Below, in pieces: positions 19,301 through 22,300 of a stretch of 64,000 nucleotides of DNA; positions within the stretch are counted from its first letter, which is position 1; the number at the start of each line of letters is the position of its first letter. The stretch is taken from NCBI RefSeq assembly GCF_051903065.1, contig NZ_CP178438.1; one strand, given 5' to 3'. A program made the position numbers. Origin of the DNA: Escherichia coli. GTDB taxonomy: Bacteria > Pseudomonadota > Gammaproteobacteria > Enterobacterales > Enterobacteriaceae.

Positions 19301-22300
19301 CACGCCTCTCCCCGCTTTGCCACGGACATATCAATATGCTCGGCCATTATTCCTTCACGCTGGCAGAACTGGTGACCAAAGGACATCTGAGACCATTAAA
19401 AGAGGCGTCAGAGGCAGAAAACGTTGCTTAACGTGAGTTTTCGTTCCACTGAGCGTCAGACCCCTTTTAAGGGTTTTAGTCAGTAGTTTTGTTCGGGCCT
19501 TGCTCGTGTTTGGTTTTCTTTGCGGCAGCGCCAAAAGTTAACGTTCGCTAGTTTGTGAGTTAGTCGCTGGCGGCCAAGGCGGTAGCGTTGTTCCTTCTGG
19601 TTCATTGGCTTCGCTGGTAAACGGTTTTTAAGGTTCCAGCCCATTTCCTGGTATCGCAGCTGGCTGGTTTAGTTTTTAATATTGCACAGGGTTGCCGCTG
19701 TTTGGCATCGCTTGGCGGCAGTGCCGCGTGGGTTTAGTGTGTTGCGGCTAACAATGCGCATCACTCGCAGCCTGCGGCTGCTGGGGCGTCAAACGCTGTC
19801 GCGTTTTTCCGCCCGTGTGCTTTGCGTTAAGCCAATACAAGGAATAAAAACTGTGCCATTTTCTGAAGATGAAAAAGCAGTATTGCTAAGTGTTAAAGGT
19901 GTAGGGCCAAAAGTTGTGGAGCGCTTAGAGCAAATGGGAATTGTAACGCTATCTCAATTGGCGAATGCTGAAATAAATAATATTTTGGAGCATGGCGCAA
20001 ATATCACCGGCTCAACTTGCTGGAAAAATAGTCCGCAAGCAAAGAATGCCATTACTTCTGCAATTCAAGCAGCGCGCAGTTTCCCCCTGACGAAAACTGT
20101 AAAAAAGAAAATATAATTTCTTTAAAATTTACATGGAACCGGTCTACGCCAGTAAGTTTATAGTTGCTTTTTGTTTCGGAAAAACGGCTTAACAAGGTTA
20201 TCAAGCGGATGGTTTTTAAGTAGCTCTTTTGCCATTCCGCTTCGCTCCATTTTATGGCAAAAGTGCTACTTAAAAACCGCCGCTTATAACGGCGTTCTGC
20301 TAACACCTAAAAGCGGACTTTACAGCCTTAAAGTTGGAATGTCTGCAATTGGCACAAAGCCACTATTCGATACAGTGGTACTTTTAGTGAATTAGGTGGT
20401 GCTGTCAGTTTGCAACGAGTGGTGCAACCGACTTGCAAATAGGTGGTGTATTAAATGGAATTAACCACCCACCCTCTATGGTGTAGAAAATCTGGCTATC
20501 GCGCCCGGCTACAGGTCACAAAGCTAGTCTGAATAAAAATTCACAGTCATGAAAGATCAACTTTTAGTCAAATTTGATTTCTGATTAGGTGTAATGTGAT
20601 GCCCCTCATTGCGAAAAGGGCATTTAATTAATCTGCTAAAAAAACACTACTTGTGTGATTAAATGTCAAGCTAAAGTTGTTTCATCGCTTTTGATGCAAA
20701 AAAAATAATGTAGGTATAATTTAACGTGGGAGCATTGCCGGTGTTCTCGAGTGAAATTGGCGAAGCCATTGAGTGCCGGGTTAACCACTGGATAGATAAT
20801 TTTCCTTTTATCTCGTAAAGCGAGCGCCAATTTGATGCACTTATAAAAAACCATCAAATTAATGCGATAAACACTGTGTAAAGCGTTGCGCCCAACTCTC
20901 AATCGACTCAACCGGAATGTTTCCAGCCTCTGCCCCTTGGTGCTTGGGGTGATTAATGCCGATGTGACAGTTTTCACCAAACAACCCATCCAATAACTCG
21001 TTAGGCCAAGATATTGATTTTGCGACCACACCTTTGCGGATAAGAGTGAAATGCTCGATCCAATCCCGTGCATCTGAGCCAAAAATCACTTTGGTTGAGA
21101 GCATTTTGATACCATCTGAGGTATCAACTTCTAACAGCACTACATCAGTCTGCATGTAACGAAGCCGAACGGCCTTAATCGCCCTTTGTGTGCCATTCTC
21201 CAGAAGGTGTTGTTTGCTGCGACCGACCTTAGGCAATGGTAGTGTTTCTTCATGAAGAATTCGGCATTTATGTTTGAACTTTAAAACCTGCAGCATTCGA
21301 TCGAAACTCTTGAAACGACTTGCAAATTGTCGCTCTCGGTCCGTAACGTCCTCTTTGCCACCAACATCTGCCGCAGGCAAGCTGCCGCCTTGATGAGGTT
21401 CTCCTGTGCTCACGTCCCTGCCTGCCTCTTTTTCGGCAAGTTCATCAAAAATCAGATTTGGGCGTTCTTTAACCACTTCCTGTTTGTAAACCCTGCTGGG
21501 CTTTGTAAAGCGGCACCAGGTTAAGTCTCCTTCTAGCATCAATGTTTCATTTTCATCAGAAGCGGATTGTTCGTCATCAATTTCAAACTCTTCGTCAGTT
21601 TGTTGCCAGGCGGTACCGCCAGAGCCACTGCGAGCTTTGCTGTCAGTTTGCTTGTTGTTGACAAAATCCGGATGAATGAACGCAACGCTCTCTGGCAAAT
21701 TGACGTCAAAATCAATCCCGACAATTTCTTCCACTAAATAATGGCTTTTACCGGTGTTGTACCTACCGCGAACATGTAATTTCCAGTTTGTCATCGTAGG
21801 TGGCGTAAAGCTAAAACGCCAGCTCTCCAAACGATCTCTGAACTCACGCGTTTCTTGATAGCGTTGGAAGATGCTTTGGTAAGAGGCCAATGCCTGAGGA
21901 TCTGTCAGTAGCCATGCCAAAAGTTGCTTAGTGCCACTTTGATCAAACGCAGATTTTGGAAAAGTACTGGTTTGTAGCACATGAATATTGACATGATTTT
22001 GTTCAGGTACGGGTTGAACATCAAATTCTAAGGGTAAGGTGGCACTGCTCAAACATGCCCGACAGAGATAGGAATTGACCAAGAAAATAGCCCTGGCAAG
22101 TTCAAGCTGTGGTATAACAATCCAATCGTCTTTGTTACCCCAACAGCAGAAAGCATTCTGAATTCCATCTTTATCTCGGATTGACTTAAAGCTGCTGATC
22201 TCTGGGAAATCAGCCAATTTTGCTTCGATAAGCTTATAGCCAGGTTCAAATGTGATTACTCTGTCTATACGGCGCGATTGTTTTTTCTGACTATTCGGCA

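What the first reader, a model, noticed from the sequence alone, without database searches (positions are those of the whole stretch)
20187..20300. ~110-bp imperfect palindrome with ~35-bp arms upstream of tnsE
Left arm ggcttaacaaggttatcaagcggatggtttttaagtagctcttttgccat pairs with the right arm atggcaaaagtgctacttaaaaaccgccgcttataacggcgttctgc around an ~18-nt loop. It begins with the TTAACAAG motif shared by the dfrA1 and protease attC sites, so it is probably the terminal attC of the array, though the 3' core (GTTCTGC) is atypical. Two ORF-track reading frames overlapping it are unlikely to be genes.
Basis: seen in the sequence. Interest (0 to 1): 0.4.

Follow-up and report, generated by a model that had tools for sequence, protein, structure and literature searches.

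The report
Last attC site of an integron
The 114-bp palindrome is an ordinary integron recombination site (attC) that closes the last gene cassette of an integron carried by a Tn7-like transposon, and its odd-looking 3' end is explained by a conserved 61-bp sequence that follows the cassette array.

Summary
Window 20187-20300 is a 114-nt imperfect palindrome with 43 pairs around an 18-nt loop (DNA fold z about -7.5). Its bottom strand has the standard attC architecture: R box, 2-nt unpaired spacer, 5-bp L box, a bulged G, 6 bp, a second unpaired site, then a long variable stem.

It ends a 468-bp cassette (19827-20294) that encodes an 87-aa helix-hairpin-helix protein. This is the fourth and last cassette after an intact integron integrase that is only 54% identical to IntI2.

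A pair-aware profile trained on 13 other attC sites scores it 34.9 bits. The best background placement in the window scores 15.9, and 20 shuffled windows peak at 20.7 or less.

At least 11 distinct full-length relatives (85-96% identical; two more are IS-truncated) occur in metagenomic contigs. Some of these lie in clear cassette arrays, two of them next to integrases. Their homology starts at R'' and stops at a canonical GTTRRRY, and several stem positions show compensatory changes.

The atypical GTTCTGC has a simple cause. The bases after the G start a conserved 61-bp post-array module. That module follows at least seven different attC sequences in plasmids and in genomes of several marine and freshwater gammaproteobacterial genera. 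Circularising the cassette restores GTTAAGC, the exact complement of R''.

The site itself is ordinary. The integron class and the 61-bp module are the less familiar parts.

The parts
20187..20300 (+). attC site of the last (HhH) cassette. It is written on the top strand; by the known integron mechanism, the strand expected to fold and recombine is the bottom strand.
   Evidence: fold and architecture; profile 34.9 bits against a background of 20.7 or less; the top strand scores -14; family, boundaries, covariation.
20187..20193 (+). R'' (inverse core) GCTTAAC. It fits RYYYAAC at 7 of 7 positions.
   Evidence: Read from the sequence; circle-closure test.
20197..20210 (+). L'' arm GTTAT-C-AAGCGG-AT. 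C20202 is the bulged G of the bottom strand. A20209/T20210 form the second unpaired site.
   Evidence: Bottom-strand fold. The bulged G is invariant in 12 family copies. Its positions match G16 and T23/T24 of attCaadA7 and VCR2 as described in PMC5027507.
20236..20253 (+). 18-nt terminal loop of the variable terminal structure. The 24-pair upper stem is 20211-20235 with 20254-20278.
20280..20290 (+). L' arm CCGCTT-ATAAC.
20294..20300 (+). R' (core) as integrated: GTTCTGC. The predicted crossover is between G20294 and T20295.
   Evidence: Homology with L011, L017-L022 and L024 begins at T20295, and each of those loci has a different attC upstream. G plus the cassette's first six bases gives GTTAAGC, the reverse complement of R''.
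19827..20294 (+). Fourth and last gene cassette, 468 bp.
   Evidence: The 5' boundary is G19826|T19827 in the preceding attC. Homology to metagenomic HhH genes starts at 19824-19829. The 3' boundary is described above..
19853..20116 (+). Cassette gene for an 87-aa helix-hairpin-helix protein (GTG start after AAGGA).
   Evidence: 132 homologues, many carrying PF14520. The RefSeq CDS 19754-20116 starts inside the preceding attC.
20295..20355 (+). Conserved 61-bp post-array module, TTCTGCTAAC...CAATTGGCAC.
   Evidence: Identical in L011 and in 7 genome loci of four genera. Two diverged variants occur in 5 further loci. The 'ACC' form always directly follows an attC. The DNA after ...GGCAC differs between loci.
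19746..19832 (+). attC of the third cassette, which has no ORF.
   Evidence: It is 82-90% identical to attCs in a Shewanella integron (L004) and a class 1 integron (L003).
14400..14498 (+). attC of the two-gene protease cassette (12631-14492).
12542..12636 (+). dfrA1 attC (the dfrA1 cassette is 12054-12630).
10829..11788 (-). Integron integrase gene, intact at 319 aa. The attI region lies between it and 12053.
   Evidence: TIGR02249 at 420.8 bits against a cut-off of 265. 54% identical to IntI2, 45% to IntI3 and 42% to IntI1. Full-length alignment to VchIntIA (2A3V) with the catalytic motifs present. Repeated TGTTACTGAG motifs in attI.
20859..22466 (-). tnsE of the Tn7-like transposon, convergent with the array. 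It is the first backbone gene after the array.
   Evidence: RefSeq annotation of identical DNA.

Best explanation
Window 20187-20300 is the attC recombination site of the fourth and last gene cassette (19827-20294) of an integron. The integron lies in the cargo region of a Tn7-like transposon inserted at glmS. The cassette carries an 87-aa helix-hairpin-helix gene.

Shown here: the site has the attC anatomy, sits in the array's orientation, and belongs to an attC family found in cassette arrays elsewhere. Both cassette boundaries coincide with homology breakpoints at G|TT.

Inferred from the established integron mechanism: the bottom strand folds into a hairpin when single-stranded. Two integrase monomers bind the R and L boxes, and the bulged bases on the arm opposite the AAC triplet select the bottom strand. 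The strand is cleaved between A and C of 5'-AAC-3', which is G20294|T20295 on the top strand. Recombination with the preceding attC would excise a 468-bp circle whose R' is GTTAAGC. Recombination with attI would re-insert that circle at the head of an array.

The integrated R' reads GTTCTGC because every base after the G belongs to a fixed 61-bp sequence that marks the distal end of arrays in this integron lineage. That sequence is most simply the right flank of the ancestral attI crossover, left behind when the first cassette was inserted. This last point is inference.
For: Anatomy:
- The bottom-strand fold shows an R stem, a 2x2 unpaired spacer, a 5-bp L box, a 1-nt bulge (G), 6 bp, a 1x2 loop, a 24-pair stem and an 18-nt loop.
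- The same layout appears in the dfrA1, protease and four other attCs folded the same way.

Score:
- A pair-aware profile was built from 13 attCs, with the target excluded.
- It scores 34.9 bits at exactly 20187-20300 on the array's strand.
- This is rank 4 in the window, behind the window's three other attCs, which were in the training set.
- The best background placement scores 15.9, the maxima of 20 dinucleotide shuffles are 12.9-20.7, and the opposite strand scores -14.
- With all window attCs and their relatives removed from training, the target scores 36.2, second only to the dfrA1 attC.

Context:
- The site lies 70 bp after the stop codon of a real gene with 132 homologues.
- It is in the orientation of an array headed by an intact integron integrase.

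Boundaries:
- In the K. pneumoniae plasmid CP129795, a related integron ends with a different cassette. Identity to the window starts at 20292-20295.
- Seven genome loci of four genera carry other attCs (25.6-43.7 bits) that end exactly 6 nt into the same downstream sequence.
- G plus the first six bases of each of the four cassettes reproduces the reverse complement of that cassette's own R''. The match is 7/7, 7/7, 6/7 and 7/7.

Family:
- At least 11 distinct full-length relatives (85-96% identical) occur in metagenome contigs, and two more are IS-truncated.
- Their homology begins at R'' and ends at GTTAGAT, GTTAGGC, GTTATGC and similar cores. Their flanks are unrelated.
- The proposed 43-pair structure is 94.4% paired in 12 copies, against 38-50% when slid. 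Eight pairs change on both sides.
- G-T pairs are 33 on the bottom strand and 14 on the top.
- Some copies lie in clear arrays: L116 has 6 attCs on one strand, L132 has an integrase plus 4 attCs, and L111 has an integrase plus 3 attCs.
Against: - No experiment shows that this copy recombines.
- As integrated, the R box pairs at only 5 of 7 positions. The first and last pair and the AAC/GTT triplet pair; the two positions between do not.
- The standard attC covariance model (IntegronFinder) was not available. My Infernal mini-model found nothing, not even the dfrA1 attC, so the score comes from a home-made profile.
- The closest homologues of the HhH gene (83-88% nt identity, L005-L010) are not followed by this attC or by any attC my profile detects. 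The gene and the site are therefore not always linked.
- In every isolate found, the cassette sits in the same array position. Mobility of this exact cassette was not observed.
Confidence: 0.93

Rival explanations
1. A fossil attC. The sequence descends from an attC but is no longer a substrate, so the last cassette is fixed in place and the palindrome has no present function.
For: The integrated R box has two mismatches (GCAGAAC against GTTAAGC on the bottom strand). The 24-pair upper stem has one mismatch that is a proper pair in most relatives. In all 8 isolates found, the cassette order at this end is identical. A neighbouring site after the first protease gene has clearly decayed.
Against: All structural determinants are intact: the AAC triplet, spacer, L box, bulged G and second unpaired site. 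Mismatch in the outer R' positions is normal for integrated cassettes. Among 13 other attCs, the three outer R-box pairs fail in 6-8 of 13. The integrase is full length with its catalytic motifs.
Confidence: 0.05
2. A generic hairpin acting as a transcription terminator or RNA stability element at the end of the array or of the convergent tnsE operon. On this reading it is not a recombination site.
For: The hairpin is very stable on both strands. The scan reports two terminator-like sites on the minus strand at 20294-20276. Rfam gives weak hairpin-type matches (mir-548, 31 bits).
Against: The terminator-like sites number 2, against 1.8 expected by chance. They are a small sub-hairpin of the L'/R' arm, and no T-run follows the main stem. 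The Rfam matches are far below gathering scores (31 against 90) and are eukaryotic miRNA models. This reading does not explain the RYYYAAC/GTT ends, the one-sided bulges, the strand asymmetry or the homology breaks at G|TT. A terminator role could coexist with the attC role.
Confidence: 0.01
3. A short protein-coding region (ORFs 20052-20306 minus or 20171-20395 plus), or the end of an insertion sequence or MITE.
For: Two ORFs of 84 and 74 aa span it.
Against: Neither ORF has a meaningful family match. The minus ORF has one weak NCBIfam hit (Mig-14, E 0.0029, 17 bits against a 515-bit cut-off) and the plus ORF has none. RefSeq annotates no CDS there. The relatives have unrelated flanks, so neither ORF is conserved beyond the palindrome. 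Variation between relatives is compensatory in stems. There is only one copy in the window and one place in the Proteus record. No transposase or target duplication is associated with it.
Confidence: 0.01

Closest known systems
attC sites (59-base elements) of integron gene cassettes, such as attCaadA7, the dfrA1 attC and the Vibrio cholerae repeats (VCR)
   Same: It has an RYYYAAC start and a GTT core. It is an imperfect palindrome with R and L boxes and an unpaired central spacer. Extrahelical bases sit on the arm opposite the AAC triplet, at positions 16 and 23/24, as in attCaadA7 and VCR2 (PMC5027507). It has a variable terminal structure and an excess of G-T pairs on the bottom strand. 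It lies at the 3' end of a promoterless ORF. Like VCRs, it belongs to a homogeneous family repeated in arrays.
   Different: At 114 nt it is long for a cassette in a mobile integron, and its upper stem is nearly perfect. As integrated, its R' is GTTCTGC rather than GTTRRRY, because it abuts the fixed post-array sequence.
Class 2 integron of Tn7 (intI2*-dfrA1-sat2-aadA1, next to tnsE-A, inserted at glmS)
   Same: The overall layout matches (my own knowledge of Tn7). It runs: left transposon end, integrase, attI, an array beginning with dfrA1, then convergent tnsEDCBA and the right end beside glmS.
   Different: The integrase is only 54% identical to IntI2 and is uninterrupted. By my recollection, the attI sequence differs from attI2. 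The cassettes after dfrA1 are two trypsin-like proteases, an ORF-less cassette and the HhH gene. The array ends in a 61-bp module not known to me from Tn7.
Integrons of Shewanella and other Alteromonadales (PMC9229058)
   Same: The ORF-less third cassette and its attC have homologues in the Shewanella xiamenensis plasmid integron L004. The integrases are the same length, 319 aa. The 61-bp module occurs in Shewanella, Rheinheimera, Alishewanella, Pseudoalteromonas and Paraglaciecola.
   Different: The relatives of the palindrome itself were found in metagenomic arrays. One of these (L132) sits beside an integrase whose closest named relative is from a Cellvibrio MAG (83%), not Shewanella.

Membership tests
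Integron attC site | Inverse core R'' RYYYAAC at the 5' end and core R' GTTRRRY at the 3' end (top strand), with the conserved AAC/GTT triplet | tested here: met
   R'' GCTTAAC fits at 7/7. R' as integrated is GTTCTGC (GTT plus the final Y fit; the RRR positions do not). After circularisation R' is GTTAAGC, which fits at 7/7 and is the exact complement of R''. Relatives in other arrays carry canonical GTTRRRY.
Integron attC site | Single-stranded hairpin with an R box and an L box separated by an unpaired central spacer | tested here: met
   The bottom-strand minimum-energy fold shows an R stem, a 2x2 spacer and a 5-bp L box. The layout is identical in five comparator attCs. z = -7.5.
Integron attC site | Extrahelical bases on the arm opposite the AAC triplet of the bottom strand | tested here: met
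   There is a bulged G (complement of C20202) and an unpaired A/T six pairs further on, both on the 3' arm of the bottom strand. The G is invariant in 12 relatives. Read on the top strand, the profile score is -14, against 34.9 on the bottom strand.
Integron attC site | Location at the 3' end of a cassette ORF, in the orientation of an array downstream of intI/attI | tested here: met
   The order is intI 10829-11788(-), attI, then four cassettes on the plus strand. The site starts 70 bp after the HhH stop codon.
Integron attC site | Modularity: homology to other copies or contexts breaks at the G|TT crossover | tested here: met
   Downstream identity with L011, L017-L022 and L024 starts at T20295, with different attCs upstream. 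The family copies lose homology right after their GTT cores.
Integron attC site | Significant score with the IntegronFinder attC covariance model | not tested
   The model was not available, and Rfam has no attC family. My Infernal mini-model failed for technical reasons. The surrogate pair-aware profile gives 34.9 bits, against a background of 20.7 or less.
Integron attC site | Recombination by an integron integrase (excision or insertion) | not testable with these tools
   This needs PCR for the circular junction or a conjugation-based recombination assay.
Class 2 integron (IntI2 / attI2) | The integrase is IntI2 (near-identical sequence, usually with an internal stop codon) | tested here: not met
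   The integrase is 53.9% identical to annotated IntI2 over the full length, with no internal stop.
Rho-independent terminator | A GC-rich stem followed directly by a T-run | tested here: not met
   No T-run follows the main stem. Only a sub-hairpin matches, at chance frequency.

The most novel reading that the evidence does not exclude
The integron may belong to an undescribed class of mobile integron. Its integrase is 54% identical to IntI2, and the element is present in E. coli, P. mirabilis and K. pneumoniae. Its arrays are always closed by a fixed 61-bp module (TTCTGCTAAC...TTGGCAC). That module may be more than a passive remnant of attI. It could be a functional end of a larger mobile unit, for example a recombination or transposition site that moves the whole integron between backbones. 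This would explain why the module is nearly invariant across genera while both the attC before it and the DNA after ...GGCAC differ. It would also explain why, in two loci, the module is followed by the sequence that lies beyond intI.
Probability: 0.2. Interest if true: 0.55.

Novelty: new member of a known kind. Interest (0 to 1): 0.27.

Why it matters
For annotation, this fixes the true extent of the array: four cassettes, ending at 20294. It corrects a RefSeq start codon that lies inside an attC. It also shows that GTTCTGC is a junction and not a degenerate core.

More broadly, clinical and animal Enterobacterales carry a Tn7-like transposon with an intact, non-class-2 integron integrase. 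Its cassettes, including dfrA1, have attC relatives in environmental arrays. This platform may therefore still be able to acquire cassettes, unlike the frozen class 2 integron of Tn7.

The conserved 61-bp sequence gives a simple marker for finding array ends of this lineage in genomes and metagenomes.

Tried and rejected
(1) Infernal model R1. It was built from 13 'mini' attCs (22 nt, GAAA, 24 nt) and searched over the window. It returned only chance hits at E of 1.6 or more and missed even the dfrA1 attC. The short model limits hit length, so the failure is technical and not evidence. I replaced it with a home-made pair-aware profile scan.

(2) MAFFT alignment of full-length attCs. The short sites were misaligned, so the alignment could not be used for a model.

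(3) Rfam. It gave only sub-threshold miRNA-hairpin matches and a weak STnc410 hit at 20553-20715 (23 bits against 50).

(4) Contexts of the closest HhH homologues (L005-L010). They share the cassette's 5' boundary but not the palindrome, and they show no detectable attC. This search therefore gave no evidence that this exact cassette moves.

(5) Metagenome pattern AAGTAGCNCTTTTGCCAT. Most of the 120 hits are chance single matches. The useful relatives were recovered only by a local blastn of the fetched loci.

(6) Literature searches for this element or integron class. The Tn7-like and Proteus papers I read treat such elements as Tn7/class 2 and do not mention attC sites. I found no description of the 61-bp module.

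(7) A long inverted repeat between the DNA left of intI and the DNA right of the array. Only short (7-13 nt) shared motifs were found (ACCAC..GTTG, AATTTACCACC), which is not convincing.

(8) An empty integron junction (attI directly joined to TTCTGC). None appeared among the 11 genome loci.
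Full report
**1. The observation**

The stretch 20187-20300 is a real, strong, imperfect palindrome. The repeat finder reports 25-nt arms (20211-20235 and 20254-20278) that are 96% complementary with 18 nt between them, plus an outer arm pair.

Folded as single-stranded DNA, the region gives -32.9 kcal/mol for the bottom strand and -34.5 for the top. Dinucleotide shuffles average about -13.5 (z = -7.5 and -7.8), and none of 200 shuffles does as well. The full hairpin has 43 pairs around an 18-nt loop.

**2. The setting**

- The window carries a Tn7-like transposon inserted beside glmS. Its ends are at about 9087 and about 28697, and tnsABCDE lie on the minus strand at 20859-28562.
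- Identical DNA occurs in a Proteus mirabilis chromosome record and in 7 of 5,426 complete E. coli genomes.
- At the left of the cargo is a 319-aa integron integrase (10829-11788, minus strand). It scores 420.8 bits on TIGR02249 against a cut-off of 265.
- The integrase aligns over its full length with VchIntIA (PDB 2A3V), with the catalytic motifs in place.
- It is only 54% identical to IntI2, 45% to IntI3 and 42% to IntI1. It is therefore not a class 2 integron, although the overall layout copies Tn7.

**3. The array**

Reading the sequence and checking boundaries by script gives four cassettes.

| Cassette | Coordinates | attC | Notes |
|---|---|---|---|
| dfrA1 | 12054-12630 | 12542-12636 | |
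| Two trypsin-like proteases | 12631-14492 | 14400-14498 | The site after the first gene has decayed |
| ORF-less | 14493-19826 | 19746-19832 | About 379 bp without the insertion; split by a 4.95-kb Tn3-family insertion with TTTTA duplications |
| Helix-hairpin-helix (HhH) | 19827-20294 | 20187-20300 | 468 bp; an 87-aa gene (GTG 19853 to 20116); 132 homologues |

A simple internal test supports every boundary. The G of each attC plus the first six bases of its own cassette should rebuild a core complementary to that cassette's R''. The match is 7/7, 7/7, 6/7 and 7/7. For the last cassette the rebuilt core is GTTAAGC, against R'' GCTTAAC.

**4. Anatomy of the site**

On the bottom strand the fold has these parts, in order:
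- an R stem containing 5'-AAC-3';
- a 2x2 unpaired spacer;
- a 5-bp L box;
- a single bulged G;
- six further pairs;
- a 1x2 internal loop (A/T);
- a 24-pair stem with one mismatch;
- an 18-nt loop.

The dfrA1 attC, the protease attC and four attCs from other integrons show the same R stem, spacer, 5-bp L box and 3'-side bulge when folded the same way. The unpaired bases sit 16 and 23/24 nt from the R'' end. These positions correspond to G16 and T23/T24 of attCaadA7 and VCR2, which are described as strand-selection determinants in PMC5027507.

**5. Scoring**

Rfam has no attC family and gives only sub-threshold hairpin matches. My Infernal model, built from shortened attCs, could not reach full-length sites and missed even the dfrA1 attC, so it says nothing.

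I therefore built a pair-aware log-odds profile. It covers the R box, spacer, L box, bulge and the six following pairs. It was trained on 13 attCs from L003, L004, L011 and the window, with the target left out. I scanned every placement of 50-150 nt on both strands of the window.

- The target scores 34.9 bits at exactly 20187-20300 in the array's orientation. This is fourth, behind the window's three other attCs, which were in the training set.
- The best background placement scores 15.9.
- The maxima of 20 dinucleotide-shuffled windows are 12.9-20.7.
- The same locus read on the other strand scores -14.
- With the window's own attCs and their relatives removed from training, the target scores 36.2. 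That is second only to the dfrA1 attC.
- No other candidate lies between 20301 and tnsE, so the array ends here.

**6. Comparative evidence at the 3' boundary**

The K. pneumoniae IncC plasmid CP129795 (L011) carries a related integron with 88% identity in attI. Its cassettes are different (dfrA6, a hypothetical protein, a VOC protein). Its last attC is unrelated to the palindrome, yet identity to the window begins at 20292-20295. It is 100% over the next 58 bp and about 85% on to 20467.

A genome-collection scan for the sequence just after the G found 11 loci. They come from Rheinheimera, Alishewanella, Arsukibacterium, Marinobacterium, Paraglaciecola, Shewanella and Pseudoalteromonas.

In L011 and the seven genome loci with the identical form of the sequence, an attC scoring 25.6-43.7 bits ends exactly six bases into it. 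With the window's palindrome, that makes at least seven different attC sequences joined to the same downstream DNA. This is the signature of recombination at G|TT. It also explains the 'atypical' core: TTCTGC is not cassette DNA.

**7. The palindrome has a family**

Local blastn of loci fetched by a metagenome scan found at least 11 distinct full-length relatives that are 85-96% identical, two IS-truncated copies, one duplicate contig, and one contig identical to the window.

- In all of them, homology starts at R'' (xxxTAACAAAG).
- In the full-length copies aligned below, homology stops just after a canonical core such as GTTAGAT, GTTAGGG, GTTAGGC, GTTAAAT, GTTATAA, GTTATGC, GTTATAG or GTTATGT.
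- The flanks are unrelated.

On an alignment of 12 copies, the 43-pair structure is 94.4% paired, against 38-50% when slid by 1-3 columns. Eight pairs change on both sides. Examples are GTTAT/ATAAC to GCAAT/ATCGC, and AAGCGG/CCGCTT to AAACGG/CCGTTT or AAGCTG/CAGCTT. The bulged G never varies. G-T pairs number 33 on the bottom strand and 14 on the top, which is the bias reported for attC sites.

Some of the relatives sit in clear arrays:
- L116 has six attCs on one strand.
- L132 has an integron integrase followed by four attCs.
- L111 has an integrase and three attCs.

The L132 integrase is 83% identical to one from a Cellvibrio MAG. This hints at, but does not establish, the source of this attC type.

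**8. Mechanism**

What is shown: the anatomy, the orientation, the boundaries, and membership of an attC family located in arrays.

What is inferred from established integron biology (PMC5027507, PMC2727003):
- The bottom strand folds when single-stranded.
- IntI binds the R and L boxes, guided by the extrahelical bases.
- IntI cleaves between A and C of AAC.
- Excision with the preceding attC yields a 468-bp circle with a perfect R box.
- attI x attC recombination would re-insert the circle at the head of an array.

Activity of this particular copy is untested.

**9. Rivals**

- **Fossil attC.** This cannot be excluded without experiments. However, all determinants are intact, and mismatch in the outer R' positions is normal for integrated cassettes.
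- **Terminator or generic hairpin.** This does not explain the ends, the one-sided bulges or the breakpoints. There is no T-run.
- **Coding region.** The two overlapping ORFs have no meaningful family match. The one weak hit is at 17 bits against a 515-bit cut-off. There is no RefSeq CDS and no conservation beyond the palindrome.

**10. What remains unexplained**

The 61-bp module (20295-20355) is identical in L011 and seven genome loci from four genera. Two diverged variants occur in five further loci. The DNA after ...TTGGCAC differs between loci. It includes an IS110 transposase, umuDC, an AHH nuclease gene and an SSB gene. IS630-like transposases lie on the array side in two loci.

In the window, L011, L012, L020 and L022, the module is followed by a GGTGGT/TTGCAAC-rich stretch (20356-20470). 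That stretch also occurs in about 100 plasmids and lies next to gamma-mobile-trio genes in L012.

In L014 and L023, the module is followed within 18 nt by the homologue of the DNA that lies just beyond intI in the window.

The simplest reading is that the module is the ancestral right flank of attI, carried along with the platform. A role as the end of a larger mobile unit is not excluded.

**11. Verdict**

The finding is correct and ordinary: it is a well-formed terminal attC. Novelty lies only in the site being a new member of a known kind, in a little-described integron lineage.

Noticed in passing
window 20295-20355 (also L011, L012, L014-L024): A 61-bp sequence (TTCTGCTAAC...CAATTGGCAC) directly follows the last attC. 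It is identical in a K. pneumoniae plasmid and seven genomes of four genera, and diverged variants occur in five further loci. The identical form is always preceded by a different attC. Right after ...GGCAC it is followed by unrelated DNA. In L014 and L023 the DNA after it is homologous to the region beyond intI (window 10726-10795).
   Followed up: partly
window 20356-20470; L012 9062-9173; L013 7001-7142: A stretch with repeated GTGGTAC / GGTGGTG / TTGCAAC motifs lies between the array and tnsE. It is about 71% identical to sequences in about 100 Citrobacter, Salmonella, Enterobacter and Acinetobacter plasmids. In the Shewanella plasmid L012 it lies at the end of a segment next to gamma-mobile-trio (gmtX) genes. 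K. pneumoniae plasmids with RND-efflux cargo (L002) share the window's DNA only from 20349 on. It may be the end of another mobile element nested in the transposon.
   Followed up: partly
window 10829-11788 (minus strand): An intact 319-aa integron integrase that is only 54% identical to IntI2 sits in a Tn7-like transposon laid out like Tn7. It is not class 1, 2 or 3. I found no description of this class in the papers searched.
   Followed up: partly
window 14515-19464: A 4.95-kb Tn3-family transposon has inserted into the third cassette. It has 38-bp inverted repeats (GGGGTCTGACGCTCAG...), 5-bp TTTTA duplications at 14510-14514 and 19465-19469, and ORFs of 286, 197 and 1054 aa. E. coli copies of the element lack it. 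The identity of the 286-aa ORF (a likely beta-lactamase) was not checked.
   Followed up: partly
window 14493-14514 + 19470-19826; L004 4975-5251; L003 4973-5194: The third cassette (about 379 bp) has no convincing ORF. It is about 75% identical to the first cassette of a Shewanella xiamenensis plasmid integron. There, a group II intron with a reverse transcriptase sits in its attC at TTGT|T. It also resembles a cassette in a class 1 integron on IncC and Pseudomonas plasmids. Its function is unknown.
   Followed up: partly
window 19754-20116: The RefSeq CDS for the HhH protein starts at ATG 19754, inside the attC of the preceding cassette (19746-19832). The cassette boundary at 19826/19827 and the homologues indicate that the real start is GTG 19853, after AAGGA.
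   Followed up: yes
window 13490-13600: The DNA after the first protease gene is 78% identical to the 5' half of the second protease's attC, but it has lost the 3' half (no GTT core, no fold). The two protease genes therefore now form one 1,862-bp cassette. Its first bases, TTAAAT, match the R'' ATTTAAC of the surviving attC.
   Followed up: yes
window 9362-10557: An IS3-family insertion sequence (terminal TGACCTATCCCC repeats, frameshifted transposase) lies between the left end of the Tn7-like transposon and the integrase gene. E. coli copies of the element also have an annotated IS3-family transposase between pstS and the integrase.
   Followed up: no
L018 1263-1691; L022 8971-9399: In two Rheinheimera genomes, an internal fragment of a related integrase gene (aa 132-256, 85% identical) is fused directly to a VOC-type attC that ends in the 61-bp module. 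These look like deletion remnants of the same integron lineage.
   Followed up: no
L132 9273-12566; L111; L116; L141: Metagenomic arrays carry relatives of the palindrome. L132 is the end of a 364-kb contig and has an integrase 51% identical to the window's and 83% identical to one from a Cellvibrio MAG. In L141, a family attC is followed by a trypsin-like protease gene that is 30-39% identical to the window's proteases. This hints at a common environmental source for several of the cassettes.
   Followed up: partly
window 43524-43619 (minus strand): This is the best non-integron placement of the attC profile in the reduced-training run (21.1 bits). It lies outside the transposon and is probably chance. 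I did not examine it.
   Followed up: no
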